From a virus (Duplodnaviria; Caudoviricetes): 53,222 bases of DNA. The stretch lies in IMG/VR virus record IMGVR_UViG_3300025141_000133, positions 1 to 53,222 of that record; one strand, 5' to 3'. The notes beneath the pieces are model-generated. The model was not told the DNA's origin. It searched no databases and worked only from the letters and a program-made list of their open reading frames with translations. Shown here in pieces: positions 16,680-53,222 of the stretch. How positions within the stretch are numbered: position 1 is the first letter of the stretch; every line of letters begins with the position of its first letter. Both the position numbers and the translations under genes were made by a program.

Positions 16680-16724
16680 GCAGTGTCTCATGTCGCTTGT
16701 ATGGCATGAGGCACTGCTTTTTTT
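16680..16724 (+). terminator. Intrinsic terminator
   Basis: 15-bp stem gcagtgtctcatgtc/ggcatgaggcactgc followed by T7. Confidence 0.9.
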
Positions 16725-24848: not shown

Positions 24849-25108
24849 TTACTGTAGATTCAATGCTAATCGAATGGTTAGAAAGCAGGGTAACAAATGG
24901 TTGCCCTGCCATAGCAACTCATGAATTCGATGATGCAAGACACTATATGAATAGGAAGTATAAACGAATGCATACTACTGCTACCATAGAACGTGCGTGG
25001 AGAAAACTCAGAGAAGAAAAACAAATAAAAACATTAGATGCAAGCATACTAGGGAGCAAAGAAAAAAGATGGTGGATAGTGAAAATCAATACATTGAAAT
25101 CGCAGTAG
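24845..25108 (+). CDS. Winged-helix-like hypothetical protein
   Basis: TIERAWRKLRE helix followed by a beta hairpin. Confidence 0.55.
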   Translation: MITVDSMLIEWLESRVTNGCPAIATHEFDDARHYMNRKYKRMHTTATIERAWRKLREEKQIKTLDASILGSKEKRWWIVKINTLKSQ

Positions 25109-26868
25109 GACACCCAAGAAATCGTGGCACAATAATAAGAAAATCAGAATTACAAAACTATATGACAAACGGACAACCATTATTCCGTTCATATTATAGT
25201 TATGATAATGAAGTAGTAGAACACTTTAAGTCACGAAAAACAATCAAAAACTTTGCAGGTAAGTATTATCTTGATAGAATCATATTCGACATAGATAAAG
25301 GAACGAATAGTGATAAGCTTACTCTGCAAAAAGTAATTACATTTATAGATGGGTTAAAAGTAATACATAGTGTTCCAAAAGACTGGATCCAAATATGGTT
25401 CAGTGGCAGAGGCTATCACATAGTAATCCCAGATATATTTGGATTTGAACCCAGCAGTACACTCCCTCAAATAGTAAAGATAAATCTAGAAACTAATTTT
25501 CCTGAAGCCGACAATATTTATGATGGAGCCAGGCTTATAAGAGTTGGTTTTACTGTAAATGAAAAGACAGACGGATATTATAAGACACCTATAACATATA
25601 AAGAGCTTACTACATTAAGCACAGAAGAGATAAAAGAACTATCCAAAACAATAAGAGGCGATTATATATTCAATAAGATAGATAGTGATACTACCTTACT
25701 GCCTATTATTAAATCAAAAGAGATAAAAAGAGTAAGTAAAGAACAAACAGAGTTTGATCCAACAGGTGTAATAACATGTGTACAAAACATGTGGAAAGAA
25801 GGAGACGTACCTGGTAATAGGCATAAGAAACTTCTTAGAATGGCAAGTCACTACTTTAGAAATGGTATCCCAATGGATGGCACTAACTCCATGTTAACTA
25901 GTTGGGCAGATAGCTTAGACTCCTCTGAAGTAAAAAGAATCGTTAAAGATGTCTGGAACAAAGGATATAGGTACGGATGTTTTGATTCTGTAATGGATAA
26001 ATACTGCGAATCAAAATGTATGCTATATTCTAATAAGCAAAAGAATGTTGACGGCTTAGTACCAATCTTAACTGCACAGCAAATGGAGCAAAATTATATC
26101 CATAGGCTAAGAAATAATGTTAAGAACAAAGGATTTAATTTGGCAGATATCTATAATCTATCAGGAGCAGACTACTGGATACTACCAGGAGATATGGTAA
26201 TAATAGAAGGAGATACAGGCTTAGGTAAAACATCATTTGTACAGAATTGGGTAGTAGGTACAGAATATTTAAAAGTACTGTGGCTTACTCTAGAAAATAC
26301 TGTAGATCTTATGTACAGAAGATTCTTACAGATAGCAATGGGTAAAACAAAAGAAGAAGTAGACAATCACTATCTTAATAATGATAACACATGGAGTGAC
26401 GTATTATCGCATATTAACTGTATGTCAATTCCACCTACTATTAAATCAATAGAACAACAAGTAGCACAACTATCCCCACAAATATTAGTAGTAGATACTA
26501 TAGACTGCATAAGAGTATCAAAATACGTTCATGATGGTATGTTTAAGATTGATTCTATCATAGAAGGCCTACGTAACATAGCAACTCAAAAGGACATTAT
26601 AGTAATTGGTGTAAGTCACATAAGTAAAGCTGATTCTAGAATGGGAGCTCTTGATGTACATAGTGGTAAGGGGTCTAGTTCTATTGCTCAAAAGGCTGAC
26701 AAAGTAATATCCATTGAAGGAAAACGTAACGCAATTAATAGAACAATTATAAGTCAAAAGAACAGGGATGATTCACGTTTCAGGATATCATGTGATTTTG
26801 ATTTTTCTACGTTTAGGTTTAAGCAAGTAGAATTACCATTCACAGTGTTTCCCTCAGATAATAAATAA
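24997..26868 (+). CDS. AEP primase-polymerase / PriL-like / SF4 helicase fusion (start probably MVDSENQ)
   Basis: IIFDID, FSGRGYH, DNIYD..RLIR; Cys cluster; GDTGLGKT, LVVDTID, VSHISK, SIAQKADKV. Confidence 0.88.
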   Translation: MEKTQRRKTNKNIRCKHTREQRKKMVDSENQYIEIAVGHPRNRGTIIRKSELQNYMTNGQPLFRSYYSYDNEVVEHFKSRKTIKNFAGKYYLDRIIFDIDKGTNSDKLTLQKVITFIDGLKVIHSVPKDWIQIWFSGRGYHIVIPDIFGFEPSSTLPQIVKINLETNFPEADNIYDGARLIRVGFTVNEKTDGYYKTPITYKELTTLSTEEIKELSKTIRGDYIFNKIDSDTTLLPIIKSKEIKRVSKEQTEFDPTGVITCVQNMWKEGDVPGNRHKKLLRMASHYFRNGIPMDGTNSMLTSWADSLDSSEVKRIVKDVWNKGYRYGCFDSVMDKYCESKCMLYSNKQKNVDGLVPILTAQQMEQNYIHRLRNNVKNKGFNLADIYNLSGADYWILPGDMVIIEGDTGLGKTSFVQNWVVGTEYLKVLWLTLENTVDLMYRRFLQIAMGKTKEEVDNHYLNNDNTWSDVLSHINCMSIPPTIKSIEQQVAQLSPQILVVDTIDCIRVSKYVHDGMFKIDSIIEGLRNIATQKDIIVIGVSHISKADSRMGALDVHSGKGSSSIAQKADKVISIEGKRNAINRTIISQKNRDDSRFRISCDFDFSTFRFKQVELPFTVFPSDNK

Positions 26869-28467: not shown

Positions 28468-31400
28468 TTATTTAGCTTCTCCTAGAGATTCTTCTGATAG
28501 TATGTCTTCTTCTGAACCTCTATGATACTGTATAATTCCCGTTGGTGCTAATGCTGGTTCTTCTCTTCTCTTAATAAGTTCTTTGCTTATCCTATGAATA
28601 GGAACACCAGTAGCTTTTTCTACCAGCATAGAGGGATATTCTAGTGTACCTTTGATATCTCTGGCTATTCTACCGAAAGGAAACCACGTCCATACATGAT
28701 AATCTGCAAATCTACCCCAATCGTTCTTAAGTAAAGCACCCAATGGCCCCAAGATATGTCTAGCAATAGGAGGAGAAACAGCCTGTAGAGGAGCTATTGG
28801 TTTTGGAAGAGTACCAAAGAAGGCACGGTCACGCTCATGCTCATTACCAAAAAGGAGATCAGACATATCCTGTACATAATTCCAAGGAGGTGGCAAAGTA
28901 GACTCAAACATAGTAAGCGGGAACGCAGTAGCCATCGAGAACATAAATAAATCTGCCAGCCCCATACGCTTGAAACGATCAAACTCAGGAGTACCAGGTT
29001 GATAATCATATAACTTAGCACCCTTATATATATCTTTTCTAAACTTTAATGAGTTCCAAGCCCATAACTGAAATCTTGAGTAAACTCTGCCAAGTGACGT
29101 TCTAGAAAAAGCAGGTCGAGCTGCATTATTATATAAATACTGAGTACCCTCTACACCCTTCATAGCCATCTCAATTAACCAGGGATCATCACGTTCAAAT
29201 GCTACCTTATTAGCAGATAGCACTTCCATAGCATTAATATAATGAGCTAAGAACGCTCTTCTTCTTAGCTTCTGCTCCATAAACTTCATAAACCATGCTG
29301 ACTTCTCTATCCAAGCCTTAGTAAAGCCATGCTTATTACCAATCTCAAATACTGAAGCTCTAGAGATCTCAGTACCATCCTTATTGACTCGTGCAATAAG
29401 ATCATTGATAAAGTTAGCACCCCTCTTACTTCGGAGAGCTGGGTTAGCTTTTAGTTCAGATCTTAAAAATGATTCAATAGCACCATGTCTCTGGGTAAAC
29501 GCAGTATAATAGTCCCAATCACGACTTTCAGGATCACCTTTCTTCATAGGAATGTTGGAATTAAGAAAATCAAGACTACCAGCACTTTTCCAGTGTCTAA
29601 AGCCAGTAGATATCAGAGTATTGAGAGAACCTCCCCAAAAGTTATTTGCCATTGTTTTTGTATGTGTTAATAATGTCATAAGCTCCCACTTAGCTTCTAA
29701 ATTAGAGAAAAGATTAAGCTTGTAGGAAAGATCGTCTTCATTTAGAGTACCATCTTCATTCTTCCTTACCCAACCCTTTCCACCAAACCACTTAGTTGCT
29801 ATCTTATCCATCTTTTTCTTAACATGTTGATCAGATAGTAAATAGTAAAGAGTATTCTTAACAGGAAAATTTCTGTCTGCTATCCAGTTTTCTGGCATAC
29901 TAGACTTATACCCTAAAATATCTCTTAAATGTAAACGTCCAAATCTTGCCCATTGTTTTACTTGATCGGGCTTAAAAGTAGTTTTTGCAGTTTCGGAAAA
30001 GTCTTCCATAATTCTATGACCTGAAAGAGTAAACATTAGATTATAGTTTGCTTTTATAATCTGATTTATATAAGTACGATAAGCATCCATATCTTTAGCC
30101 CAGCTAGGAATAACATGACCATGTCTCGCCCTTGAAAGAGCATGGGACGGTCTTCTAAAAAGTCCTATACGCTCTACGTCTTTTTCTGTCATACCTTCAG
30201 TCATAATAAATTCTGCCATAGGATGAAGAGCCCCACCATCATCAAGCTGTGCCCTCATTGCTGTTGTTTCTAAGCTTACTCTGAGCTTTGCTAGTGCGGT
30301 TGCTGACTTACCTTCTGCCTTCGCTTTTTCTATTCGAGCTTCAATATACTGATCTTTAATTTTCTTAATATGGTCTCTATGGGGCCAATAATGTTCTACT
30401 TCAATCTCTCCTACTCCCTTAAAAGCAAATTTCCCCTTGGGTTTGTTAGTTCTAGGATGAATAGTTTCATCCAGATACCTTGACATTATATTTGCTCGTT
30501 TATCGGGATGCATGTCTTTAATCCTAACGCCATTAATTGTCATACGAGAGACAGCATACTCGTTAGATAAACGTAAAAGGTTTTCTAGTCCTACCTTTTT
30601 TAAATCAGCTTCTTTCCCTTGAAAAAGTACATCAGATATTTCTCGCTTTATTATCTCAGAGAATTTAATGTTTCCACTTTTATCTCTATAAGGAGCCACC
30701 CATTCATCATAATCATACTCACCTTTTATCCACTGATCTTTCATATTTGTGTTCAGCTTAGTAATCTTTCTATTTATAATCTCAATTATTTCTTTTCCTG
30801 TTTTAGTAACACGACCTTTCTTTTTACCCTCACTAGGAAAGTTATATATCTTATCCTTATAAATTTCGTATAGTTCATCAGCTTCTTTAGCATATTTTTC
30901 ATATTGTGGTTCGTTATGTTTACTTGCTAATGCCCTTTCTCTATACGCTATAGCTATATTTACTAGATCAGGAGCATCTTTTTCTAAGAGAAAAAGAAAT
31001 TCAAACTCATCGTTTACTCTTTTAGCCCACCTATCTGTAGTATTGGAAAACCATAGATTAGATTTGATACCCATGTCAACCATGCGACCATAGTGAGCTA
31101 TAGGAATAGCTACGTCCTTCTTGTATACCTTCCCGTCAGCAGCACGTACAGGTACGTTCTTTCTAGCAAACCAATTCAAATTGTAAGCAAGGTGCTTCTG
31201 AGAAATAGTGTCAGGAAAAAAGTAAAAATGAAACCACTTAAGAGCATAACCAGGATCATCCTTAGCCATATCTAATAAGAAATTGCGACCATGAAGACCA
31301 CGCCAATAATTTATAAAGACTTTTACATCCTCAATAGTAGCAGCACCTGGGAGAACACCAGCACCAGGAATTGGAATACCAAAGGTACCGCGAAGAGAAG

Positions 31401-34400
31401 TAATGCCAGGAAAAGATTTACTTATATTATGAAGTAAAGTAGGATGTTTTTGAAATATCCAACGTAGTTCCTTTCGTAATCTTTTAACCTCACGTGTTTC
31501 ATTTACTATACGCTTGTCTCTTGTTTTTACATCTACCCAACTATAGTCTTCAATACCTTCCCACATCTTTTTACTCATTTCATCGGCTGATGCTTCTGCT
31601 TTATCTCCAGTAACTTCTTTCTCAACCTCTTTCATTATTCTTTGTACTTTTGGGTCTTTAGAAGGTTTTTTACCCATAAATACAGCAACTTCTTCGCTAG
31701 TTATTGGTTCTCCAAGCTTGGTAGCAAGTTTATGATAATCATTTAGCCACCCTTCTATAATAGGCCTTGGTACTACAGGAGATTCAAATCCAAACGATCT
31801 AAGGTTATCACTGTAAGTAGAACCACTCATTGTTCCGATAAAATATTCAAAAAATGCTCTTTTACCAGTTGCTTCTCCTATTGTCTCAACATAACTCCTA
31901 ATAAGTGCATTAATCTCGTTGATAACTGGTGCTTTTCTTTCTACTGTACGTTCCCGTTTCTTTTTATTAATATCTAACATTCTTTGAGCATACTGTGTTA
32001 ATAGTTTATCAGCAGTCTTAAATATTTCTGTCAATTCTTCTGTTGTACCACCAGAATCAAGAAATGCTTTATTAGCCTTGAATACACGTCTTACGCTAGT
32101 GAGAGCAGCTAATGTTTTTGAATAGTAATCTCTTTTCTTGTCAAGATCTTTTATATTCTTTAAGTATTCAATAGGATCTTCACCTCGAGCAGTAGCAACT
32201 TTAAATTGAAGTTTACTTAGTACTTTCTCTCTAAAATAAATTGCTTCTTCAGAAGTACCATGAACAATTTCCTCTAATACTTTGCCAGCTTTAACTATTT
32301 CCTTTTCAGAGAGCCATTTAGATGGATCAGGATCATGTCTAACATTCCTAATAGCAGTAGCACGATACTCATCTAATGGAGATAACAGATCTCTTTTTAT
32401 ACCTTTACTCTCTATAGCACCTTCAGCCTGCCCATATCCTAAATAAGAGTTAGCAAGATCAGACTTTTCAGAAAGAGTTAAGCTTCTTTTTTTTGTATAA
32501 TCCCATCCACTAACCGCTTTATTTAGTTCTTCCATGCCACGATATATAGTACCACGAATAAGACCTACTGACTTCTCATTTTCTAATACATTTGCTACTC
32601 TTTTACCATCAGGAGTTACTATTTCAATCTTATCAAAAGCAGCTTTAAAAAGTATCTCTGTAAGTTTCTCTGGGTTTATTATGCCAGTATATTTAGCTGC
32701 GTCCGCTGCCATGTTTTGGATAGCCCTAGCATATAACCTTAGTTTCTTTCCTCCGTCCTTATTTGGTTTTAATACTATATAGAGCTCACCTTTTGGGTAT
32801 TCAACACTAATATTCTTCTTGGCCGCTGCTCTGATGTTTTTACTTCTTTTCCACTGACCTCTAGGAATAGTAAATGGTATTCTTTTTTCCTTGCCTTCAG
32901 TAATATCCTGAAGCATATGAATTCTTCTCTTCAAGTTGTTTGCAAGTCCTAACAACTTGTTACCTTTACGTGCATTATGAGAAATATAGAATCTTGTTAG
33001 TGGGTCTAACATACCAAATGGTGTCTTAGCCATATCTAGGTCTAAGTTACCTTCTTCCGAGAATATTTCTTCTAATTCTCTAGTTACAGGTTTCAGGAAT
33101 TTTTTGCCTTTATGCCATTCTTTAGATTGTTTTTTGATACTTTCTTTAAGTGACTTCGGTAGGTTCTGGTAAATATGTACCTTATCAATATCTAAGTCCA
33201 TCCCACCAAGGTAACCCATGTCCTCTGGGTGAAGTAGGATACCAGCTCCTTTCCTACCTGTGAATCCCATAAATTTGAGTATCCTAGTGCCAGAAACAGA
33301 GTCAGATGGCACACGAATAATAGCAAGCTCAAGAGCCTCATTAACTGACTCTATATCTGTTTTGATAGCTTTCCTATCTTTTGTAGGTACTCTTCTGAGT
33401 TTATTCTTTAATTCTGTACGACGAGATAGAAGCTGATCTAAGGTAAGGTTGGCTCTTATTCCATCAGCTTTTACAATAGTATAATTAGTTACAAAATTCT
33501 TCCACTTATTGTTTAAATAAAACTCACCAGGCCTCAAATTGATATCCTTTTGTAACCAAGGATCGTAGGGGACACCAATAGCTGTGCCACTATGTCCTAC
33601 TACGGGTTTTACAATACGTCTAGTAGCATACTTGGCTAGTATGCGATCAGTAGTAAATCTTACTAACTTAAAGTTAATTATTGGAGCAGATAAGGCACCT
33701 GCTTCTCCTAACATTATATCTGCTCTTCTTATAATATCTGTATCGAGCTCGCTTTCTTCAAACGTATTATTATCTAGTTCTTCAGTACGATTAGTAATTG
33801 GTTTCCCCTGAGCATGTAATAACATTTTCCAAAACTTTCTATACAGTGGGCTATCAGAAACAGTAACACCATCTACTAAGTCTATGATGCGGTCTAAGCT
33901 AACCTTTTCAAATCGTTCCTCTAGAATTTCACCTTCTGCCTCAAGAAATTCCTTTATATGCTTCTCTTCTCCAGTTTTAATATACTTATCCCATTTAGCA
34001 TTAACTTCTGGATCACCTGCAACAGCAGGAAGCAGAACTTTCTCAACAGCCTCGGCTACCACTTTTTTATCTATCTGAGAATTGTTGGCATTGCCTAGTA
34101 ATTGTTTGACTATCTGTACATTACTGGTTGCTCTTCTGACATGTTCATAGTTCCCTGGACTAATAGTAAGCCCACTATGTGGTATTGTATATATTTCAGG
34201 ATTAGGATCTATAACCTTAGTGTTCTCTGTATAAAAGTCTAGTTCACCCTTTTCATTAAGGTTTATGTCATACTTACTTCTCCTACCTAATTGTTTAGTA
34301 GCCGTGTCAAATATATAACCGTGCATATTCTTAGATTGTAGTTCTGTTGAAGCTTCTTTACCTGCTGAAAAATAAGCATATTTACCTAGTATTAGCCCTC

Positions 34401-37400
34401 TTCGCTTTCCAAAAAGCGTCTTAAGGGTGCTAGCAGGAACTTGAATTTCAGGTGATGGACTCTGATCAGTATATCTCATGAATCCTTTAAGAACAGCTCC
34501 ATCCTTAGGAATGCCAGCGTCCTTCGCCATAGCATTGAAGACATCATCACGTACTAAAAATACACCGTCAAGATGTGCGTCATAAGATTTGTTAAGCATA
34601 TCTTTTAAAATTTCTCTGTTCCATGACATTTTACCAAGCTTACCAGGAATAGCGTTAACGATAGCTAATCTAAATCCGTCTTTCATATCAGGAATATGTT
34701 GATACATAAGAGGATCCATAGTTGGCTCACCAGAATCAATAATTTGCATCCTTTGATTAAGTGTAATAGGGTCAGTAATAAATTGTCCTTCTCCTGATGT
34801 ATTATATTTAATTATGTCTTTTAGTGGCATACCACCATTCATTCTTTCTATAACTGCAGCAGTTGAATAGACAGACTGTGCATATATCTCTTCTGATTCC
34901 CTGTTCTCTATTTTCTTTCCTTTCTCTCTACCGTGGTTTATCATTATCCTAAATTTAGCAAGACCTTTATTGTACTGTGATCTTGCATTGTTGACAACAT
35001 TAGGATCGCTTATTTCCTCTATGAATGCGCGTGCCCAAGCAACAGCATTCTCAGGTTCAATCTGATGCGGAATAAAAATCATACGATTCTTATCTTTTAC
35101 ACCACTTAAGTATGTATAGCCACTTTTATGCTCTGAAAGAAAGATATTAGCTAAAGGATATCTCTTTTCTACTGTTGTAAAACCGCCTCTTTCAGTGGCT
35201 TCTTTACGGTTAACAATGAAATCGAATCCATCAAACTCCATGTCAAATAATTTTTCAACACTATAACGACGTTTAGGTGTCCCGTTACGGTTCCTTCCTA
35301 CAGTATCTACCCATTCTGCGTATTCTACTACTTTTCTAATTGATTTCTTAACACCTTCAGCTAACGGTAGCATCTCAAGGAATGATTGTGGCCGATCTCG
35401 TACTATTATATGAGCTTTTTGGCTCATATCTCCTCTGTCCTTTGTGTCTAGGAGAGTAAAATAACTTTGTGTTTCCCTCAGACTAGTCCTACGCCTGTTA
35501 AAGTACCGTCTTATACCATTCCATTCTTGGCTACCCTCTTCAAATGAAACTTCCCAACTACTTTTAAGATCATCCATAAACTTAAAAAAGTCTATGTTTT
35601 GTGTGATGTCTTGCGTTCTTTTATCCATCCATAACTGTATAGATTTCCTAGAACTTGTGGGATTAGCTTTCTGAATTGTACTTATTGTAGTTTCTAAAGA
35701 GTTATCAAATATATAAGAGTTTGTGTCATGATCCTCCACAGTATCTTTTATTTCTCTATTTTTTGTTTGTAAAGAGGTTTCAGCTGGTCTGTCTTCTGGT
35801 GATGTTACTTGCTCAGATGAAGCTAATTCTGGTTTAGCTTTATCAGGCTTGTTTATTAATTCAAATTGAAATTGCCATCTATTCTTATTCTGTTGGTATC
35901 CGCTTTTATCCCAACCTTCTAATTTTGACCATTCTTTAGGAGTAATATCACTTACTTTATAAGGAGCTTTAGTAACTCTGACAGTCACAGCTTTCTTAGA
36001 GTTTTTATCGTAAAAATCAAGTATATCGCCTACTTTTAAATTTTTAACATCTGATAAGTTTCTAGTAGTAGCAGTTCTATCTCCAGATAGAATTAAATCC
36101 ATAGTAGATTTCCCACTAAATTCTGGTCGCATCTTTCTACCGCCAGTACCATCCTTAAAATGCATTGGCATGGAGGGGGCGTCTCTGTGGAGGATAGATA
36201 TGGGGGCTGGAGCTTCTGCAGATATAGAAATAGCATCACGAAGAACACTTTTCATATTCGCTATTGCATCTGGATCATTAGCAATAGCACGATTACCAGC
36301 CACATTAAGAGTCTTAATATTATTTTCTTTTAACCAGCTAGATAATTCTTCTACAGTTGGATTAGCAATATAAGGTTTACCAATCTCAAGGGATTGATTC
36401 TTAGTAAGTTTTGAACCAGGAGAAGTTTCTTTACCAAACAAGACAGTACCATCAGAATCTTTTATATTTTGTATTGTACGTTTACGATAAACCTTAGGAT
36501 CAGCTTCGCCTTCTACCAACCCATATTCCTTTAATAATTTAGGCTTCTTTCCCTTAGAAGTTTGAAATCCAGGAGGAGCAGTACCACCTGTCTCCAATCC
36601 TATCTCTTTACCTACTTCAAGACCTATCTGATCTGCCCCAATCTGGCCCCCAGAAATAATCTTAGTTACACCTGCAGGTTTGACTTCAGCTGGAGTAGCT
36701 GCTGCTGCTTCTTCTTTTTCTACAACACGATTAATCTCTTCAACCCCTTTGCGCCATTTTGCAACTACTTCTTTAGGAGTTTTCTCTTTAATTTCTCTGG
36801 TATTATAATACTCTTCAGCGCTTTCTTTACCTTCGGTTCGTAATGTATATTCATACATTTCTAACATTTTCTTTATACTATGAACATTTATTCCTCTTTG
36901 AGCCCTTGAGTATCCCCAACTTGCAGGGTAGTCTATAAACTCATTCCGTATTGGCTCAGGCAATTCAGCAAGTTCAGCGGGAGACATAGTCTGTATTTTT
37001 TGGTTTAGATCAGCAAATTCTTGTGCTAATTTTTGAGCTTTAGGGTTATTTTTGACTGTTGGATGATCAGAGTTCCAGTTTATTTGCCGAATATCACTGT
37101 AACCAATATCTAATTCTAATGTCTCGGCATTTAATCGAGCAATCTCATCTATTATTTCTTGATTTTTTACGGATGGTTTTTTAGGAGATGGTGGAGGTTC
37201 AATTAATTCTCCTGTTTTAATGTCTCTTATATCGCCTTCAGCTGTTGCTACTACTCCTTCTTCTCCAATAGCTTTGAGATGTTCATAAGGATGCCAGCCA
37301 GTTTCCATATTATCATACCGTACAACCCAGCCCACTGCTGTTTCTCTTATCCTTTGAACTTGTGTGCCCTCCATCTCTTTTATCCCTTCAGGAAGGTCAA

Positions 37401-38700
37401 CTAAAATTGCGTTAGGGTTAAATTCAGGTGCATCAGGTATAAATTTTTGTTTTATGAAGCTCTCTTTCTTTTTTCCTTCAACGTCAACAATAACTTTATA
37501 GCCTTTTTGGGTTTTCTTGATGATTTCTGCTTTCTTGCCTGAATGTATTCCACCTATTACATCTACTATAGCTCCTTGAGGTACAATCCCTAGACTCTCA
37601 AACTCTTGTAGAAATGCCTCAGTCATATCAGCACGGTTTTCACTGGCCTTTAGAATTTCTTGTCTAGTTCCTTCTGGGAGATCTGACCAGCCAGTCATCT
37701 TAGTAGGATCTTGCCAATCTTCTCGGGACATAAAGTTTGGGTTCTCAGGATCGTTCATTATTTTGGCTGCGTGTACCTTTTCTGCTGGTACAGCATGAGC
37801 ACCAAACCATGCACCTAATAGATATTCATAAACCTGTAGCTCTGTGGCATCTCCTCTCATTGTTGAGGGTAATCCTGTAAAAGCAGCACCTGCCATACCT
37901 CTTACTACTTTCTCTGCTGTTACTACAACTTGTGGATCTGTATCCTTTAGAAGTTTTCCAAGTTTAACATAGTTGCCTATGCCACCAAACACAGCACCCA
38001 TTTGAGCACCGCCTATAAATCCTTCCATCATAGCATCAGTACCCTGTTGCCAGTTAGAAACTGCTGAAGCTGCAGCAAGATGAAACCCACCACCTACGAT
38101 AGCCCTGCCAGCCGTTCCTTCACGTAAAAACTTAACAGCTTTGAGTGCTTCTACGTTTCCTAGTAGCTTACCGACGCCTTTAGTGGCTACGTCAGCAGCT
38201 ATCATAGGTACAGATGGTATCTTTACACCCCATTTACTAGGTCTGACCTTTAGGACATCTTTTATAGCGCCAGGAATCTTGGTCTTACCTAAAGTTGCTT
38301 CAGCTAGACTTAATGTTTTAGCACTTTTAGCAGCCTTAGTAGCAAGAGAAGCCCCGCCCATAGCTGTTCTACCCAATAAACCTAGACCAGGTATAAAACC
38401 TACAAAGCCAAGTAAATGACCTATATTACGTGATATTGCTTCTGCTGTGTTTCGGGGATCGTCACCAGTATGGATTGTAGTAAGGCCAGAAGCAAAACCA
38501 GAAAGTGCCTGACCAACCGTATTAAAAAGGTTAAAGTCAGCACCATCAGGGTCTTGTTCTATATTTACACCGAGATTTTGAGCTCGTTGTTGGAGTGCTT
38601 CGACTTGTTCCTGAGTAAACCAATCAGGATGTTCTCGATAGAGACGACTATCGTGTAAAAGTTGCTTCTCTAAGAGTTCTTGTTGATAAGAAGATAACAT
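28468..38700 (-). CDS. Giant ejected protein: putative crAss-type virion RNA polymerase with accessory domains
   Basis: GGMDLDIDK (DxDxD at 33184-33198), upstream IIRVP, HLDG, ILGK, FDTATK and downstream AADAAK; last gene of the ejection cluster. Confidence 0.8.
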   Translation of the reverse strand: MLSSYQQELLEKQLLHDSRLYREHPDWFTQEQVEALQQRAQNLGVNIEQDPDGADFNLFNTVGQALSGFASGLTTIHTGDDPRNTAEAISRNIGHLLGFVGFIPGLGLLGRTAMGGASLATKAAKSAKTLSLAEATLGKTKIPGAIKDVLKVRPSKWGVKIPSVPMIAADVATKGVGKLLGNVEALKAVKFLREGTAGRAIVGGGFHLAAASAVSNWQQGTDAMMEGFIGGAQMGAVFGGIGNYVKLGKLLKDTDPQVVVTAEKVVRGMAGAAFTGLPSTMRGDATELQVYEYLLGAWFGAHAVPAEKVHAAKIMNDPENPNFMSREDWQDPTKMTGWSDLPEGTRQEILKASENRADMTEAFLQEFESLGIVPQGAIVDVIGGIHSGKKAEIIKKTQKGYKVIVDVEGKKKESFIKQKFIPDAPEFNPNAILVDLPEGIKEMEGTQVQRIRETAVGWVVRYDNMETGWHPYEHLKAIGEEGVVATAEGDIRDIKTGELIEPPPSPKKPSVKNQEIIDEIARLNAETLELDIGYSDIRQINWNSDHPTVKNNPKAQKLAQEFADLNQKIQTMSPAELAELPEPIRNEFIDYPASWGYSRAQRGINVHSIKKMLEMYEYTLRTEGKESAEEYYNTREIKEKTPKEVVAKWRKGVEEINRVVEKEEAAAATPAEVKPAGVTKIISGGQIGADQIGLEVGKEIGLETGGTAPPGFQTSKGKKPKLLKEYGLVEGEADPKVYRKRTIQNIKDSDGTVLFGKETSPGSKLTKNQSLEIGKPYIANPTVEELSSWLKENNIKTLNVAGNRAIANDPDAIANMKSVLRDAISISAEAPAPISILHRDAPSMPMHFKDGTGGRKMRPEFSGKSTMDLILSGDRTATTRNLSDVKNLKVGDILDFYDKNSKKAVTVRVTKAPYKVSDITPKEWSKLEGWDKSGYQQNKNRWQFQFELINKPDKAKPELASSEQVTSPEDRPAETSLQTKNREIKDTVEDHDTNSYIFDNSLETTISTIQKANPTSSRKSIQLWMDKRTQDITQNIDFFKFMDDLKSSWEVSFEEGSQEWNGIRRYFNRRRTSLRETQSYFTLLDTKDRGDMSQKAHIIVRDRPQSFLEMLPLAEGVKKSIRKVVEYAEWVDTVGRNRNGTPKRRYSVEKLFDMEFDGFDFIVNRKEATERGGFTTVEKRYPLANIFLSEHKSGYTYLSGVKDKNRMIFIPHQIEPENAVAWARAFIEEISDPNVVNNARSQYNKGLAKFRIMINHGREKGKKIENRESEEIYAQSVYSTAAVIERMNGGMPLKDIIKYNTSGEGQFITDPITLNQRMQIIDSGEPTMDPLMYQHIPDMKDGFRLAIVNAIPGKLGKMSWNREILKDMLNKSYDAHLDGVFLVRDDVFNAMAKDAGIPKDGAVLKGFMRYTDQSPSPEIQVPASTLKTLFGKRRGLILGKYAYFSAGKEASTELQSKNMHGYIFDTATKQLGRRSKYDINLNEKGELDFYTENTKVIDPNPEIYTIPHSGLTISPGNYEHVRRATSNVQIVKQLLGNANNSQIDKKVVAEAVEKVLLPAVAGDPEVNAKWDKYIKTGEEKHIKEFLEAEGEILEERFEKVSLDRIIDLVDGVTVSDSPLYRKFWKMLLHAQGKPITNRTEELDNNTFEESELDTDIIRRADIMLGEAGALSAPIINFKLVRFTTDRILAKYATRRIVKPVVGHSGTAIGVPYDPWLQKDINLRPGEFYLNNKWKNFVTNYTIVKADGIRANLTLDQLLSRRTELKNKLRRVPTKDRKAIKTDIESVNEALELAIIRVPSDSVSGTRILKFMGFTGRKGAGILLHPEDMGYLGGMDLDIDKVHIYQNLPKSLKESIKKQSKEWHKGKKFLKPVTRELEEIFSEEGNLDLDMAKTPFGMLDPLTRFYISHNARKGNKLLGLANNLKRRIHMLQDITEGKEKRIPFTIPRGQWKRSKNIRAAAKKNISVEYPKGELYIVLKPNKDGGKKLRLYARAIQNMAADAAKYTGIINPEKLTEILFKAAFDKIEIVTPDGKRVANVLENEKSVGLIRGTIYRGMEELNKAVSGWDYTKKRSLTLSEKSDLANSYLGYGQAEGAIESKGIKRDLLSPLDEYRATAIRNVRHDPDPSKWLSEKEIVKAGKVLEEIVHGTSEEAIYFREKVLSKLQFKVATARGEDPIEYLKNIKDLDKKRDYYSKTLAALTSVRRVFKANKAFLDSGGTTEELTEIFKTADKLLTQYAQRMLDINKKKRERTVERKAPVINEINALIRSYVETIGEATGKRAFFEYFIGTMSGSTYSDNLRSFGFESPVVPRPIIEGWLNDYHKLATKLGEPITSEEVAVFMGKKPSKDPKVQRIMKEVEKEVTGDKAEASADEMSKKMWEGIEDYSWVDVKTRDKRIVNETREVKRLRKELRWIFQKHPTLLHNISKSFPGITSLRGTFGIPIPGAGVLPGAATIEDVKVFINYWRGLHGRNFLLDMAKDDPGYALKWFHFYFFPDTISQKHLAYNLNWFARKNVPVRAADGKVYKKDVAIPIAHYGRMVDMGIKSNLWFSNTTDRWAKRVNDEFEFLFLLEKDAPDLVNIAIAYRERALASKHNEPQYEKYAKEADELYEIYKDKIYNFPSEGKKKGRVTKTGKEIIEIINRKITKLNTNMKDQWIKGEYDYDEWVAPYRDKSGNIKFSEIIKREISDVLFQGKEADLKKVGLENLLRLSNEYAVSRMTINGVRIKDMHPDKRANIMSRYLDETIHPRTNKPKGKFAFKGVGEIEVEHYWPHRDHIKKIKDQYIEARIEKAKAEGKSATALAKLRVSLETTAMRAQLDDGGALHPMAEFIMTEGMTEKDVERIGLFRRPSHALSRARHGHVIPSWAKDMDAYRTYINQIIKANYNLMFTLSGHRIMEDFSETAKTTFKPDQVKQWARFGRLHLRDILGYKSSMPENWIADRNFPVKNTLYYLLSDQHVKKKMDKIATKWFGGKGWVRKNEDGTLNEDDLSYKLNLFSNLEAKWELMTLLTHTKTMANNFWGGSLNTLISTGFRHWKSAGSLDFLNSNIPMKKGDPESRDWDYYTAFTQRHGAIESFLRSELKANPALRSKRGANFINDLIARVNKDGTEISRASVFEIGNKHGFTKAWIEKSAWFMKFMEQKLRRRAFLAHYINAMEVLSANKVAFERDDPWLIEMAMKGVEGTQYLYNNAARPAFSRTSLGRVYSRFQLWAWNSLKFRKDIYKGAKLYDYQPGTPEFDRFKRMGLADLFMFSMATAFPLTMFESTLPPPWNYVQDMSDLLFGNEHERDRAFFGTLPKPIAPLQAVSPPIARHILGPLGALLKNDWGRFADYHVWTWFPFGRIARDIKGTLEYPSMLVEKATGVPIHRISKELIKRREEPALAPTGIIQYHRGSEEDILSEESLGEAK

Positions 38701-41457: not shown

Positions 41458-41706
41458 TTAACTCTCCTTTAGTGTTAAATTAACTCCAGCCCATCCTTCT
41501 TTAGTACGAGCTTCTATCTCATGACCACCAGAACTCTTCTTAACAACTTTTATATCTCCTGGCTTACCTGATGAACTTTTATCTGCATCCGTGCTAATCT
41601 TATTCACAGACTGTATAATATTATTAATATCATCATAAATTTGTTTTACTATTCTATTCATAGAAGGATCTTCTACATTTGGCATTCTTTTATTAGAAAG
41701 ACTCAT
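41458..41706 (-). CDS. Small tail-associated protein
   Basis: Coupled to the nozzle gene. Confidence 0.65.
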   Translation of the reverse strand: MSLSNKRMPNVEDPSMNRIVKQIYDDINNIIQSVNKISTDADKSSSGKPGDIKVVKKSSGGHEIEARTKEGWAGVNLTLKES

Positions 41707-44700
41707 TTTACTGGTAGTGGCCTATAAATGATACCTATTGAATCTACTTCACCTGTATTGCCAACTGGCACAACCTTTACCTGGATTGCCTTAGCCTTTT
41801 TATCGTTAGTTGCTATTTTCTCGCTTGTTAATGATGTGTTGGGTGCACTTCCATTCATACCATAAGTGGCTGTACCAGAACCTACCAATCTTATTTTATA
41901 GAACATCTTATCCTGAGTATCTGCTCCTAATGTGATCAATTTTGTTTGGTATTCCCATGTTCTACGAGTGTCAGCATTAGCGAGATAATGTATAAGTTCA
42001 TGACTTGTTCCTATATATGATTCCCCATTCTTTCCTGACACATAACATTGAGGAACATGAGTTTGACTTAAATCTAATAAATCCCATCTTTTTCTTGATA
42101 GATTATAAGCCCAGCACGAATATCTAGTAAACCCAGTATTTTGTGGATCTCCAGCTTTAAAGAAAACTAGTAAGCTAGTTCTAAAAGGATCAAATGCTAG
42201 TACTGGATCAACAGTAACATCTCTATGCTGCCAGGGATAATTGGCGGTATCAGCATCATCGATTATGGCATCTCCTATAATTTGCGGGCTAGAACCAGTA
42301 TGCATATAGATATTATGATCGCTACAAAAGAACATTCCATATTCTGTTGTTAGTACAGCTCTTTGACTTGTACATCCAATACCCTCAAATATATCTTCTA
42401 CGAAAAAGTTATTTGGTTCTATCCTATATGTATTACTCTTATCAAAAGCATAGACTCTTCCGCCAAAAGTAGCTAGTGCAGTAGGAACAGTAGGTAATCT
42501 TAAAAAGTCTTTTGACCAATCAAAAGTATCATACTTATATGGTTTAGACCTAAACAAGTATTGTTTTGCGTCATCGATATTAGGATGTGCACACTGTCCT
42601 ACAAAAAGTTGAGAGTTAGCTTCAGTAGCAAGCCCATATGATACAATAGGATTTGTTAATAGCTCATCAATCCCAGTAATAGCATCATAAGAAGCACCAG
42701 GATCTGTATCATCTGTAAATTCATACGTAGCATTAACGTCACCATTATTATCTGTTGTTACATCCCATGCATTATCTGAAAGAGAAATGTTTTTAACTAA
42801 GCGAAAGAACACGTTAGGCTCAGTTTCAGTGTCATCAGCATTTTCGGAACGATAAATTGAGATGCCAGTAAGTCTTTTATCAATATTCCCTATTTTTGTT
42901 AATGTGAGTGTTATATTAGCATCCACCCCATCTTCATCAATAGCTATTCCGTCTAAAGGATAAGTATGCTCAGTAAGTACTGATTCTTGATAACCGTCAT
43001 ATATAAAACTTGCTTTCCAAAATACTCTTTTCTCAGTACCAGTAGCCTGATCAGCAATAGCAAGAGAAAAAGGAACTACACCTAATTGATCAAGAGAGTA
43101 AGTACCAAAGTCATGGGTTAATGTATCAATTTTAGGTGTTTCTTCTTGTCTGGCTAGATATAGTAACGGTTCTGTTGTTCCAGTAGAATGCCCGATTAAT
43201 GATTTATAGACATCTTCAGTGTAGAAAGTTGTCCAGGTTTGTACTGTACCAGCATATGTGTTATCATTAACCCCTTGAAAAACTTTTATTACAGTGCCAT
43301 CTGCTACATATAGAGAGTGATAAATGGGTGCTTCTCTTTCCGTCTGTATCATATTTACATATCCTGACGTTATTTGATGATTATTCGAGCTTCCTTCTGT
43401 ATCAAAGACACTCATAGAAGCATAGTCATCTATTACTTTATTTTCATGATCCTCATGTATTTTATTAACAACTTTTTCAGCTACTATATTACCCCAAGAT
43501 ACTTTCAGTAGAGGGCCATTGAAGTTCGAAGCGACCATGTTATCATTATATTGACAATACCACCCAACAACACTACCACTACATTTAATCAAACTTCGTA
43601 TAAAGGTTTTAGGCTTTTGCTCGTCACCGCTAGAACTTACGTTTCCACTGTTATATTCTATCCATCCTCCATCTTCATTTGCTCCTATAAGTCTTGGTGA
43701 TCTTTTTGTAAGAGTAAGATCATTATCGTTAGCCCCTGGTTTAGGAGCATTATAGATGGCACAGGAAGCTACTCTGTTTGGCGAGTAAGCTGCGAACCAT
43801 ACTTTATTATCTGTAGTTATTATATCACTGAACGTAAGTAACCAACCAGCCCAATCGGGCATAACAAACCTATGACTATATGTTATTGAAAAGTCGTCCC
43901 AATCCATCTCATGTAACTTATAAATTTTGTTATCAGCATTTATACGATCTAGTATATATAACTTTTCATCATCGTCATCATAATGTATCCCACATATACT
44001 TGTGAATAATACACTATTAGTATCAATAGCTTCAGTATCGGCATTTATTCTGTATAGGGTTGATGAGCCAAAGGCAGCTCCAAATATCCAATCGTGTTCA
44101 ACTGGAAGAAGACGGACACGCTCTAAGTAATCAAAAAATGTTAAAGCGGTAAGAGATGTTATACCAGCTGTTGTTACTACAAATTCATCTATCTCAGTTC
44201 CTAATCTCTCATTCTTTATATAGCCCGCCCATGTAGGTGGAAGGTCACTTCCTAGCCCTATATGAACTTCTTTATTATGTACTGTCATTACAGAATTACT
44301 ACCTACTGCTCTACTTGTTATACTTTGTGTACTAGGATCTTCTATGTCCTCTATTAATCCTACTCCATTGTGATTAAGATAGACAAGATTATTAGTATCA
44401 TTATTTCTAATGATTTTCCCTGATTGGATATTATTTGCAATGGCAGGAACAGATGTCCAGTCCCACCGATCACCCAGAGTAAATCCTGTGGTGGAGCTAA
44501 ATTTTATCTTTAAACCAAAGTCATCACTAAGAACTATGTAGCTTGTAGAGCATGCTACACCCGTTGCCTCGTAAGTTTGACCCCCGTCATTTGACCATTT
44601 GAATGTATTTTGGGAAATGCTACTATCAATTATTACTGTATAGCTTGTATTTTCTGTACCAACATAAGTACCATCGATTGTCAAGCCATTTGATGATATG

Positions 44701-44711
44701 GGTGTAGCCAT
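41703..44711 (-). CDS. Tail nozzle/stabilisation protein (beta-propeller)
   Basis: FIYDGYQES, RLTGISIYR, GIGC.S..AV..TEYGMFF and YQTKLI..G...QDK.FYKI motifs. Confidence 0.75.
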   Translation of the reverse strand: MATPISSNGLTIDGTYVGTENTSYTVIIDSSISQNTFKWSNDGGQTYEATGVACSTSYIVLSDDFGLKIKFSSTTGFTLGDRWDWTSVPAIANNIQSGKIIRNNDTNNLVYLNHNGVGLIEDIEDPSTQSITSRAVGSNSVMTVHNKEVHIGLGSDLPPTWAGYIKNERLGTEIDEFVVTTAGITSLTALTFFDYLERVRLLPVEHDWIFGAAFGSSTLYRINADTEAIDTNSVLFTSICGIHYDDDDEKLYILDRINADNKIYKLHEMDWDDFSITYSHRFVMPDWAGWLLTFSDIITTDNKVWFAAYSPNRVASCAIYNAPKPGANDNDLTLTKRSPRLIGANEDGGWIEYNSGNVSSSGDEQKPKTFIRSLIKCSGSVVGWYCQYNDNMVASNFNGPLLKVSWGNIVAEKVVNKIHEDHENKVIDDYASMSVFDTEGSSNNHQITSGYVNMIQTEREAPIYHSLYVADGTVIKVFQGVNDNTYAGTVQTWTTFYTEDVYKSLIGHSTGTTEPLLYLARQEETPKIDTLTHDFGTYSLDQLGVVPFSLAIADQATGTEKRVFWKASFIYDGYQESVLTEHTYPLDGIAIDEDGVDANITLTLTKIGNIDKRLTGISIYRSENADDTETEPNVFFRLVKNISLSDNAWDVTTDNNGDVNATYEFTDDTDPGASYDAITGIDELLTNPIVSYGLATEANSQLFVGQCAHPNIDDAKQYLFRSKPYKYDTFDWSKDFLRLPTVPTALATFGGRVYAFDKSNTYRIEPNNFFVEDIFEGIGCTSQRAVLTTEYGMFFCSDHNIYMHTGSSPQIIGDAIIDDADTANYPWQHRDVTVDPVLAFDPFRTSLLVFFKAGDPQNTGFTRYSCWAYNLSRKRWDLLDLSQTHVPQCYVSGKNGESYIGTSHELIHYLANADTRRTWEYQTKLITLGADTQDKMFYKIRLVGSGTATYGMNGSAPNTSLTSEKIATNDKKAKAIQVKVVPVGNTGEVDSIGIIYRPLPVK

Positions 44712-53215: not shown

Positions 53216-53222
53216 TTTTATG

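What the first reader, a model, noticed from the sequence alone, without database searches (positions are those of the whole stretch)
32650..34620. crAss-type two-barrel virion RNA polymerase in a ~50 kb phage
Seen: GGMDLDIDK with an upstream R.P motif and a downstream AADAAK. Established: phi14:2 gp66 (DFDID) is a virion-packaged RNAP related to eukaryotic RNAi polymerases such as QDE-1, in ~100 kb Crassvirales. Inference: the same enzyme class occurs in a genome half that size lacking the crAss DNA polymerase module, so possibly a distinct lineage.
Basis: partly seen in the sequence, partly recalled or inferred. Interest (0 to 1): 0.8.

Follow-up and report, generated by a model that had tools for sequence, protein, structure and literature searches.

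The report
Giant two-barrel RNA polymerase, 50-kb phage
A single 3,410-residue gene of an uncultured ~50 kb phage carries, in its middle, an RNA polymerase of the same rare "two-barrel" kind as the virion polymerase of crAss-like phages and the RNAi polymerases of eukaryotes, which shows that this enzyme class occurs in a second, widespread and much smaller phage lineage.

Summary
GGMDLDIDK (aa 1832-1840), an upstream RVP (1796-1798) and AADAAK (1998-2003) lie in one 3,410-aa ORF (28468-38700, minus strand).

A lone DxDxD is expected by chance. However, the three Asp, R1796/P1798 and D2000 are invariant in 62 of 62 aligned homologues.

An AlphaFold model of aa 1151-2300 (pLDDT 78.9) has phi14:2 gp66 (6VR4) as its best Foldseek match (E 2e-10). 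QDE-1 and plant RDR2 follow. Every strong match is a two-barrel RNA polymerase.

Profile-profile comparison with crAss-like vRNAPs gives 91% probability (E 1e-6; reversed control E 0.64). It lines up both barrels, the bridge-helix motif and the trigger-loop motif; AADAAK is the trigger-loop motif.

BLAST and HMMER do not link the two families. The head genes fall in other PHROG families than those of phi14:2, so this is a distinct family, not a Crassvirales member.

The family has 249 representative clusters and 294 viral contigs; the 80 listed contigs reach at most 56 kb. Six of six near-complete genomes lack PolA and PolB.

Virion packaging and early transcription are inferred from gene position and architecture. 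They were not shown.

The parts
28468..38700 (-). Giant ORF of 3,410 aa (P0001), the last gene of the late/structural block
   Evidence: Homologues of 1,980-3,643 aa and mostly 2,500-4,000 aa.
37681..38553 (-). Conserved N-terminal module (aa ~50-340), rich in Gly/Ala, with one moderately hydrophobic segment at aa 92-114
   Evidence: Occupancy 0.63-0.97 and majority residue up to 0.49 in 45 full-length members. Hydropathy. No Pfam or PHROG match. No profile match to phi14:2 gp076, gp077 or gp078 (E 0.14-0.88).
35551..37653 (-). Variable insert region (aa ~350-1050), poorly shared within the family
   Evidence: Occupancy 0.19-0.55.
36238..36660 (-). cpYpsA SLOG domain (aa 681-821) inside the variable region
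   Evidence: Pfam PF12694, E 2.9e-22, 79.4 bits against a cut-off of 26.2. PDB 3imk, E 6.9e-11.
32335..35127 (-). Two-barrel RNA polymerase core (aa ~1192-2122)
   Evidence: Model m74103e8dae57. VIA alignments span model residues ~25-972. hhalign covers model 42-997.
34141..34581 (-). First barrel region (beta-like, 'DPBB-B'; aa ~1374-1520), with invariant D1378, K1405, K1440, K1469 and G1472
   Evidence: Strands at model 230-368 with pLDDT mostly 85-98. Invariant columns. Aligned to the ...KVG... region of gp66.
33166..33333 (-). Second barrel (beta'-like, 'DPBB-A'; aa ~1790-1845), with R1796-V-P1798, H1824 and G1833
   Evidence: Strands at model 641-694 with pLDDT 90-97. Aligned to gp66 1313-1370.
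33184..33198 (-). Catalytic-type motif DLDID (D1835, D1837, D1839)
   Evidence: Kept in 62 of 62 rows. Aligned onto DFDID 1361-1365 of gp66.
32911..33006 (-). Bridge-helix-like motif (aa 1899-1930; DPL...A..G...LG.A.N)
   Evidence: Aligned by hhalign to gp66 ~1529-1559, which the gp66 paper names the bridge helix. Helices at model 750-784.
32689..32736 (-). Trigger-loop-like motif (aa 1989-2004) containing AADAAK, with invariant D2000
   Evidence: Family consensus R...N..ADA.D. It resembles the crAss consensus A.VD..KDP inside the gp66 trigger loop 1598-1636. hhalign itself placed this stretch with low confidence, so the equivalence is by motif and spacing.
28651..30153 (-). Most conserved C-terminal module (aa ~2850-3350), mostly helical
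   Evidence: Occupancy 0.88-0.98 and majority residue 0.33-0.58. Model m2e6e1495a8d9 has pLDDT 69.6. No significant structural match.
41703..44711 (-). 1,002-aa protein upstream on the same strand, linked with the giant gene in relatives
   Evidence: tblastn hit on the same strand in 38 of 80 related loci. No Pfam or PHROG family.
24997..26868 (+). Primase-helicase near the end of the opposite (replication) block, convergent on the giant gene
   Evidence: PHROGs 19, 16345 and 239. A homologue lies on the opposite strand in 46 of 80 related loci.

Best explanation
The 3,410-aa protein is a multi-module phage protein. Its central third (aa ~1190-2120) is a single-chain two-barrel, Mg-dependent RNA polymerase. 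It is homologous to the virion RNA polymerase of crAss-like phages (phi14:2 gp66) and to the eukaryotic RNAi polymerases (QDE-1, RDR2).

Shown here, by prediction and comparison:
- a beta-like barrel with invariant lysines;
- a connector;
- a beta'-like barrel with R-V-P...H...GG-DLDID, whose three Asp would hold the catalytic Mg2+;
- bridge-helix-like and trigger-loop-like motifs downstream.

Inferred:
- The protein is made late, with the structural genes, and packaged into the capsid.
- It is ejected into the host with the DNA, perhaps with help from its conserved N- and C-terminal modules.
- It then transcribes the early genes without the host polymerase, as gp66 does in phi14:2 and, with an unrelated enzyme, as the 3,500-aa vRNAP does in N4.

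It belongs to a distinct family carried by a lineage of ~47-56 kb phages that encode no DNA polymerase. It is not a member of the Crassvirales.
For: Conservation: the three Asp, R1796, P1798, K1405, K1440, K1469 and D2000 are invariant in 62 of 62 rows.

Structure:
- The model of aa 1151-2300 has pLDDT 78.9 and pTM 0.81.
- Foldseek against PDB ranks 6vr4_A (gp66) first at E 2.2e-10, then QDE-1 at 9e-6 to 1e-4 and RDR2 at 1e-3. Multisubunit beta' chains follow from E 1.5e-2. 15 matches have E <= 1e-3.
- BFVD: after unnamed viral proteins, the named matches are crAss-like phage proteins, and phi14:2 itself is at rank 27.

Profile-profile comparison:
- Family against a 9-sequence crAss vRNAP alignment: probability 91%, E 1.1e-6, 823 columns (436 at the default threshold). 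The reversed control gives E 0.64.
- A second alignment pair gives 42.7%, E 2.5e-4.
- RVP...DLDID falls on RIP...DFDID. The bridge-helix motif aligns as well.

Gene context:
- The gene is last in the late block, after TerL, portal, MCP, tail fibre, endolysin and metallophosphoesterase, and it converges on the replication block. phi14:2 has the same order.
- The primase-helicase is convergent in 46 of 80 related loci, and the 1,002-aa upstream protein is on the same strand in 38 of 80.

From the gp66 paper, passages read:
- gp66 is virion-packaged.
- Its in vitro transcription is rifampicin-resistant.
- It needs Mg2+ and all three Asp.
- It transcribes the early genes.
Against: - No experiment or proteome shows that this protein is in virions, and no RNA synthesis was tested.
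- Sequence searches alone do not link it to any RNA polymerase. Pfam and PHROGs give nothing for the core. phmmer and hmmsearch against PDB sequences miss gp66 and QDE-1. tblastn against 50,697 phage records gives no match. hhalign against gp66 as a single sequence gives only 2.4% probability, E 0.019.
- The N- and C-terminal modules have no significant match to anything, including the gp66 neighbours. Their role in ejection is therefore a guess.
- No shared early-promoter motif was found: sigma-70-like sites number 49 against 49.1 expected.
- The models are predictions, and residue-level superposition on 6VR4 could not be inspected.
Confidence: 0.62

Rival explanations
1. It is an active two-barrel RNA polymerase but not a virion enzyme. 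It is made during infection and transcribes middle or late phage genes inside the cell, like P23-45 gp64 or the non-virion RNAPs of jumbo phages.
Against: The gene is the last one of the late structural block rather than part of the early block. Its 3,410-aa size, with conserved non-polymerase N- and C-terminal modules, fits packaged giants such as gp66 and N4 vRNAP better than the ~600-aa gp62/gp64 chains (target lengths 591-595). No second RNAP was seen that could start early transcription: DLDID is the only DxDxD in this protein. The PF00940 search was uninformative because its control rang nowhere.
Confidence: 0.15
2. It is a two-barrel polymerase with another activity. It could be RNA-dependent RNA synthesis, as in QDE-1 and RDR2. 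It could be priming or DNA synthesis that makes up for the missing DNA polymerase, as in the two-barrel PolD.
For: RDR2 and QDE-1 give the highest Z (13.6 and 13.0). The phage and 5 of 5 relatives encode neither PolA nor PolB.
Against: No PolD chain is among the 50 rows listed. According to the gp66 paper, QDE-1 itself transcribes single-stranded DNA robustly (passage). The phage has its own primase-helicase. Many phages of this size use the host replicase (general knowledge, recalled).
Confidence: 0.1
3. It is a structural or ejection protein that keeps an RNAP-like fold but no longer polymerises.
Against: All three Asp, the barrel lysines, R/P and the trigger-loop Asp are invariant in 62 of 62 rows at 21-31% overall identity. 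That is the pattern of a working active site. gp66 with the same Ile is active.
Confidence: 0.07
4. The motif is a chance match in an unrelated giant protein.
For: 0.66 DxDxD are expected by chance in a protein of this length.
Against: The motif is conserved, the structural matches are consistent, and the profile-profile alignment is significant against its control.
Confidence: 0.01

Closest known systems
Virion RNA polymerase of crAss-like phages (Cellulophaga phage phi14:2 gp66, PDB 6VR4; GenBank tag Phi14:2_gp077)
   Same: - Both are single-chain two-barrel enzymes inside a giant protein.
- gp66 is the best Foldseek match (E 2.2e-10) and gives the longest structural alignment (745 residues).
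- The profile alignment is collinear from the N-terminal KR motif through both barrels to the bridge helix.
- Both have D-x-D-I-D-K with Ile at position 4.
- Both genes sit at the end of the late block, after lysin and metallophosphoesterase, and converge on the replication genes.
   Different: - There is no BLAST- or HMMER-level similarity.
- This protein has 3,410 aa against 2,180 for gp66.
- Its conserved N- and C-terminal modules are not found in gp66 or in the gp66 neighbours gp076 and gp078.
- Most family members carry the canonical Gly at position 4: DLDGD in 49 of 80 loci.
- The genome is half the size, has no DNA polymerase, and its TerL, portal and MCP belong to other PHROG families.
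Eukaryotic RNAi polymerases QDE-1 (2J7N, 7Y7P) and RDR2 (7W84, 7RQS)
   Different: No sequence-level link was found. One is a cellular enzyme of about 1,000-1,400 aa and the other a giant phage protein. The biological roles differ.
Phage N4 virion RNA polymerase (Schitoviridae gp50, ~3,500 aa)
   Same: The proposed way of working and the three-part layout match: a giant protein with a central polymerase between N- and C-terminal domains, packaged and ejected to transcribe early genes. The N4 facts come from abstracts in the listings.
   Different: The N4 enzyme is a T7-like single-subunit polymerase, which is an unrelated fold. No T7-like chain appears among the rows listed for the model. This is an analogy, not homology.
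P23-45 gp96 (tape-measure-fused virion RNAP) and gp64 / P74-26 gp62 (non-virion RNAP)
   Different: They come from a siphovirus with an 800-nm tail. The polymerase there is N-terminal in a tape-measure protein. No tape-measure or sheath gene was identified in this window.

Membership tests
Two-barrel (double-psi beta-barrel) RNA polymerase superfamily | A beta'-like barrel carrying the metal-binding D-x-D-x-D loop | tested here: met
   DLDID lies in the loop before strand 690-694 of the model, flanked by strands 641-673 with pLDDT 90-97. It is invariant in 62 of 62 rows and aligns to DFDID of gp66.
Two-barrel (double-psi beta-barrel) RNA polymerase superfamily | A second, beta-like barrel with conserved basic residues that faces the first | tested here: met
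   Strands at model 230-368 and invariant K1405, K1440 and K1469. All matched structures cover this region (model ranges starting at 1-32). The barrel topology itself was not inspected residue by residue.
Two-barrel (double-psi beta-barrel) RNA polymerase superfamily | A bridge helix and a trigger loop after the catalytic barrel | tested here: inconclusive
   The bridge-helix motif aligns to gp66 1529-1559. The trigger-loop equivalence (AADAAK with gp66 ...VDNAKD...) rests on motif likeness and spacing, because hhalign was unsure there.
Two-barrel (double-psi beta-barrel) RNA polymerase superfamily | Mg-dependent, template-directed RNA synthesis | not testable with these tools
   This needs a biochemical assay.
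crAss-like phage virion RNAP (gp66 orthologues) | Sequence similarity to gp66 orthologues | tested here: inconclusive
   Not detected by tblastn or by hmmsearch against PDB sequences. Detected by hhalign at 91%, E 1.1e-6 and at 42.7%, E 2.5e-4. gp66 itself finds 141 phage records by tblastn, all about 88-104 kb among the full-genome rows listed and none from this lineage.
crAss-like phage virion RNAP (gp66 orthologues) | Ile or Val at position 4 of the catalytic motif (stated for all crAss-like phages in the gp66 paper) | tested here: met
   The window protein has DLDID. Within its own family this is the minority form: DLDID in 13 of 80 loci, DLDGD in 49, DKDSD in 15, DLDSD in 2, none found in 1.
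crAss-like phage virion RNAP (gp66 orthologues) | Carried by a Crassvirales genome (shared TerL, portal and MCP; ~90-105 kb; own DNA polymerase) | tested here: not met
   The window's TerL, portal and MCP are phrog_38, 156 and 1328, whereas those of phi14:2 are phrog_6681, 6547 and 11589. 0 of 48 window ORFs hit phi14:2 45.2-100 kb by tblastn at E <= 0.01. No PolA or PolB was found. The record is 53.2 kb and rated 100% complete.
crAss-like phage virion RNAP (gp66 orthologues) | Presence in the virion and transcription of early genes | not testable with these tools
   Only the gene position in the late block speaks for it.
Eukaryotic RDR / QDE-1 RNAi polymerases | Sequence membership of the RdRP family | tested here: not met
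   The Pfam scan of the whole protein found only cpYpsA above its cut-off. PDB sequence searches did not find QDE-1 or RDR2. The fold similarity is strong.
N4-like (T7-type single-subunit) virion RNAP | A T7-like RNA polymerase domain (PF00940) | tested here: inconclusive
   There was no match in the window, but the control search rang in none of the 14 control genomes. The Pfam scan of the protein gave no PF00940 hit.

The most novel reading that the evidence does not exclude
The protein would be an all-in-one 'ejectosome-polymerase'. Its conserved N- and C-terminal modules would take it through the cell envelope, like the internal core proteins of T7-type podoviruses. Its central two-barrel polymerase would begin transcribing the entering genome. 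Variable inserts such as the SLOG domain would be delivered as counter-defence cargo.

The lineage mostly has the canonical DxDGD motif and scores at least as close to RDR2 and QDE-1 as to gp66. It would therefore be a deep sister of both the crAss vRNAPs and the eukaryotic RNAi polymerases. That would make it a better model than crAss phages for the proposed phage ancestor of RNAi polymerases.
Probability: 0.2. Interest if true: 0.85.

Novelty: new variant of a known kind. Interest (0 to 1): 0.66.

Why it matters
Single-chain two-barrel RNA polymerases packaged in virions are known by experiment from crAss-like phages (~100 kb) and from the P23-45 group. This finding places the same enzyme class in a numerous, uncultured lineage of ~47-56 kb phages: 249 clusters at 50% identity and 294 IMG/VR contigs.

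These phages have T7-like packaging genes and no DNA polymerase. At least one relative is integrated in a Bacteroidota genome.

The finding matters in three ways:
- It widens the pool of phage enzymes from which eukaryotic RNAi polymerases may derive.
- It gives a family in which position 4 of the catalytic motif varies naturally (Gly, Ile, Ser, Ala). The gp66 paper ties this position to a self-inhibited state.
- It gives a third, independent case of a giant ejected polymerase, which can be compared with N4.

Tried and rejected
Searches that found no RNA polymerase link:
- Pfam and PHROGs on the whole protein found only the SLOG domain.
- phmmer or hmmsearch of the protein, of A1 and of A6 against PDB sequences found no RNA polymerase.
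- tblastn of aa 1001-2500 against 50,697 phage records gave no match.
- tblastn of 48 window ORFs against phi14:2 45.2-100 kb gave no hit.

N- and C-terminal modules:
- hhalign of both modules against phi14:2 gp076, gp078 and gp077 gave E 0.14-0.88, so the idea that the giant protein is a fusion of the three crAss giant proteins has no support.
- ESM Atlas: the nearest clusters have no Pfam family. LPD38, LPD22, LPD14, PT-TG and P22 gp16 appear at 0.87-0.95, and the tool marks them as often chance. Pfam did not confirm any of them.

Early promoters:
- Sigma-70-like sites number 49 against 49.1 expected.
- No convincing repeated motif was found in 15.6-22.6 kb.

Literature:
- Four searches plus searches found no paper describing this ~50 kb lineage or its polymerase.
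- The polyvalent-protein paper (PMC5512222) mentions neither SLOG nor a double-psi barrel.

- Alignments A2 and A3 were too large for the fold tool, and A4 was too large for the PDB sequence tool.


Full report
**1. The observation**

The region lies inside one open reading frame, 28468..38700 on the minus strand, which encodes 3,410 aa.
- GGMDLDIDK is aa 1832-1840 (window 33181-33207).
- DLDID is the only DxDxD in the protein.
- AADAAK is aa 1998-2003.
- RVP occurs at aa 1770 and 1796.

A DxDxD is expected 0.66 times by chance in a protein of this length and Asp content. The motif alone therefore proves nothing. Conservation carries the weight.

A search of 1.84 billion cluster representatives with aa 1351-2500 found 249 proteins at E <= 1e-3, 187 at <= 1e-10 and 34 at <= 1e-30. 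Most are 2,500-4,000 aa long.

In a 62-row alignment at 21-31% identity to the window protein, these columns are invariant: D1378, K1405, K1440, K1469, G1472, P1699, R1796, P1798, G1818, G1833, D1835, D1837, D1839 and D2000. 62 of 62 rows keep D-x-D-x-D and D2000. The conserved 'R.P' is R1796-V-P1798.

**2. What ordinary annotation says**

Annotation tools say almost nothing about the core.
- Pfam finds only a circularly permuted YpsA SLOG domain at aa 681-821 (E 2.9e-22). The one PDB sequence hit is the matching 3imk.
- PHROGs finds no family.
- tblastn of aa 1001-2500 against 50,697 phage records finds nothing.
- HMM searches of PDB sequences with family profiles do not find gp66 or QDE-1.

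**3. Structure**

AlphaFold2 was run on aa 1151-2300 with a 37-row alignment. The model has mean pLDDT 78.9 and pTM 0.81. The stretches around the two barrels reach pLDDT 90-98.

Foldseek against the PDB:

| Match | E-value |
|---|---|
| 6vr4_A, virion RNAP gp66 of crAss-like phage phi14:2 | 2.2e-10 |
| QDE-1 chains | 9.3e-6 to 1.4e-4 |
| Plant RDR2 | 1.3e-3 to 9e-3 |
| Bacterial beta' chains | from 1.5e-2 |

|---|---|---|
| RDR2 | 13.6 | 452 |
| QDE-1 | 13.0 | 552 |
| P74-26 gp62 | 12.7 | 426 |
| gp66 (model 1-1040 onto gp66 225-1860) | 11.1 | 745 |

- All 50 rows shown are two-barrel RNA polymerases.
- gp66 is best by Foldseek E-value and by aligned length, while the eukaryotic enzymes are best by Z. 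I treat these as tied.
- Against predicted viral structures, the first five matches are unnamed viral proteins (E 4e-32 to 1e-13). The named matches are mostly crAss-like phage proteins, and phi14:2 itself is at rank 27.

**4. Sequence-level link to crAss vRNAPs**

I took gp66 from GenBank KC821624 (45265-51807, minus strand; 2,180 aa with DFDID at 1361). I also took eight crAss-like orthologue segments found by tblastn.

- hhalign of the family against gp66 alone aligns aa 1787-1844 (IIRVPSDSVSG...GGMDLDIDK) with gp66 1313-1370 (YRIPNQGQSS...GSDFDIDK). The probability is only 2.4%, E 0.019.
- Against the 9-row crAss alignment it gives 91% probability and E 1.1e-6 over 823 columns, or 436 columns at the default confidence threshold (model 154-694 onto gp66 881-1370). 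The reversed alignment gives E 0.64.
- A second pair of alignments (45 full-length family members against 6 full-length crAss proteins) gives 42.7%, E 2.5e-4.

The alignment is collinear. These motifs pair up:

| This family | crAss vRNAPs |
|---|---|
| N-K-R | K-R |
| TAAKQ.G.R | ..KVG.. |
| RVP.DS.SG | YR[IV]PT..S |
| GG[AM]DLD[IG]D | G[SF]DFD[IV]DK |
| DPL...A..G...LG.A.N (aa 1899-1930) | P..Q......G..[IV]G..AN, which is gp66 1529-1559 |

The gp66 paper calls gp66 1529-1559 the bridge helix. hhalign was not confident there, so that equivalence rests on motif likeness and spacing.

What I use from the gp66 paper (bioRxiv 10.1101/2020.03.07.982082) comes from passages returned by 'find':
- gp66 is a virion component.
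- It needs Mg2+ and each of the three Asp.
- Its in vitro transcription is rifampicin-resistant.
- It transcribes the early genes.
- Its early transcripts have no common upstream motif.
- All crAss-like orthologues have Ile or Val at position 4 of the motif.

**5. Architecture of the giant protein**

In 45 full-length members the layout is:
- a conserved N-terminal module (aa ~50-340);
- a poorly shared insert region (aa ~350-1050), which in the window protein holds the SLOG domain;
- the polymerase core (aa ~1050-2100, with the conservation peak at 1801-1850);
- a moderately conserved stretch;
- a C-terminal module (aa ~2850-3350) as conserved as the active site.

Neither terminal module resembles phi14:2 gp076, gp077 or gp078 by hhalign (E 0.14-0.88).

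ESM Atlas gives only unnamed viral clusters. Weak leads to 'large polyvalent protein' domains and to P22 gp16 appear, and Pfam does not confirm them.

**6. The phage**

*Genome record*
- The window is a whole virus record of 53,222 bases, rated 100% complete and 'linear'.
- Its ends overlap. 3816-4022 matches 53016-53222 at 99%, 3486-3785 matches 52689-52988 at 96%, and 1-150 matches 51478-51627 at 99%.
- These overlaps join two versions of a tail-fibre gene: 1,274+ aa at the start and 589 aa at the end.
- The unique genome is therefore about 49-51 kb, and the record seems to wrap around.

*Gene content*
- The window holds a late block on the minus strand and a replication block on the plus strand.
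- The late block runs, across the wrap, through TerL, portal, MCP, tail proteins, tail fibre, endolysin, metallophosphoesterase, several unknown genes and the giant gene.
- The replication block carries a DUF932 protein, a Sak4-like protein, a primase-helicase and a RusA-like protein, and it converges on the giant gene.
- phi14:2 has the same overall order.

*Relationship to known phages*
- The proteins are not detectably related to those of phi14:2: 0 of 48 window ORFs hit phi14:2 45.2-100 kb.
- TerL, portal and MCP fall in phrog_38, 156 and 1328, against 6681, 6547 and 11589 for phi14:2.
- TerL is at most 27% identical to any listed phage, with 1,609 matching records that are largely phages of enterobacteria, Pseudomonas and Vibrio.
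- MCP matches only 5 records, at 25-28% identity.
- No tRNA was found.

*DNA polymerase*
- No PolA or PolB was found in the window.
- None was found in 5 of 5 relatives of 46.9-56.4 kb rated 95-100% complete.

**7. The lineage**

- IMG/VR holds 294 confirmed loci out of 377 candidates. In the 80 loci kept, no contig exceeds 56,405 bases.
- In those 80 loci the giant ORF is mostly 2,600-3,400 aa. The motif is DLDGD in 49, DKDSD in 15, DLDID in 13 and DLDSD in 2; in 1 the longest ORF lacked it.
- The primase-helicase homologue lies convergent to the giant gene in 46 of 80 loci. The 1,002-aa upstream protein lies on the same strand in 38 of 80.

In species-representative genomes, 5 of 265 candidates were confirmed:
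- a 46-kb contig in a Prochlorococcus single-cell assembly;
- a 52.9-kb contig of a Bacteroidota MAG;
- a short contig of a Rhodothermales MAG;
- a copy inside a 1.84-Mb Bacteroidetes contig, where the gene is split into several ORFs and is followed by a tyrosine integrase and then host metabolic genes;
- a copy inside a 2.8-Mb Rhodothermales chromosome, matching only the catalytic barrel.

Some members are therefore integrated, and Bacteroidota or Rhodothermota are likely hosts for part of the family.

One open point remains. The 90% cluster of the window protein is recorded on a contig of 101,329 bases. I could not fetch it, so it may be a two-copy assembly or a larger genome.

**8. Interpretation**

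- Shown by prediction and comparison: the centre of the protein is a two-barrel RNA polymerase homologous to crAss vRNAPs and RNAi polymerases, with an active-site pattern under strong constraint.
- Inferred: late expression, packaging, ejection and early transcription. The basis is the gene's place at the end of the structural block, its size, and its conserved non-polymerase ends. This follows the experimentally shown behaviour of gp66. It also parallels N4 vRNAP, which I know only from abstracts in the listings.
- I found no early-promoter motif. This neither helps nor hurts, because gp66 early transcripts have none either.

**9. Novelty**

The enzyme class and the virion-RNAP strategy are known. 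This family, its architecture and its ~50 kb, polymerase-less host genomes were not found in six literature searches.

[quoted passage not shown] Their alignments are in a supplement I could not open, so the family may already be listed there.

I rate the finding a new variant of a known kind.

Noticed in passing
window 1-4022 and 51253-53222: The record's two ends overlap: 3816-4022 matches 53016-53222 at 99%, 3486-3785 matches 52689-52988 at 96%, and 1-150 matches 51478-51627 at 99%. The overlap carries two versions of the tail-fibre gene, one of 1,274+ aa that runs off the start and one complete 589-aa version. A 57-nt unit recurs 7 times in them. This looks like a wrap-around assembly across a variable, repeat-rich fibre gene, or two co-existing fibre variants.
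   Followed up: partly
window 36238-36660 (aa 681-821) and about 35820-36150 (aa ~850-960): A cpYpsA SLOG domain (nucleotide or ADP-ribose-type ligand binding) sits in the variable insert of the giant protein, followed by a small domain with no Pfam match. Only the window's own cluster carried PF12694 among the 9 hits. One crAss vRNAP gene in the fetched records is annotated as containing DUF1768. Such giants may therefore carry variable enzymatic cargo.
   Followed up: no
L094:7312-17689: A relative of the giant gene lies inside a 1.84-Mb Bacteroidetes MAG contig. It is split into at least four overlapping ORFs, through frameshifts or assembly errors. A tyrosine integrase (PF00589, E 2e-21) follows it, and then host epimerase and aminotransferase genes. 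This looks like the end of an integrated prophage.
   Followed up: partly
L095:10001-10267: A 2.8-Mb Rhodothermales chromosome matches only aa 639-728 of the query (the catalytic barrel), at 40% identity. It may be a remnant or a different architecture.
   Followed up: no
window 16680-16717 (+): A 16-bp-stem hairpin followed by a run of T lies just after the small ORF 16343-16663, at the start of the plus-strand block. It is the strongest terminator-like site in 15.6-29 kb.
   Followed up: no
window 11077-11184 and 45961-46205: In-frame tandem duplications: 2 x 54 nt (94% identical) inside the portal gene, and 2 x ~122 nt (86% identical) inside the 597-aa ORF 44957-46750.
   Followed up: no
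window 38723-39541: The 272-aa protein just upstream of the giant gene has only a weak, sub-threshold Pfam hit to the SseC translocator family (E 0.01, 15.9 bits against a cut-off of 30.2). It has homologues in only 2 of 80 related loci.
   Followed up: no
cluster of P0002: The 90%-identity cluster of the window protein (15 member sequences) is recorded on a contig of 101,329 bases, about twice the window's unique length.
   Followed up: no
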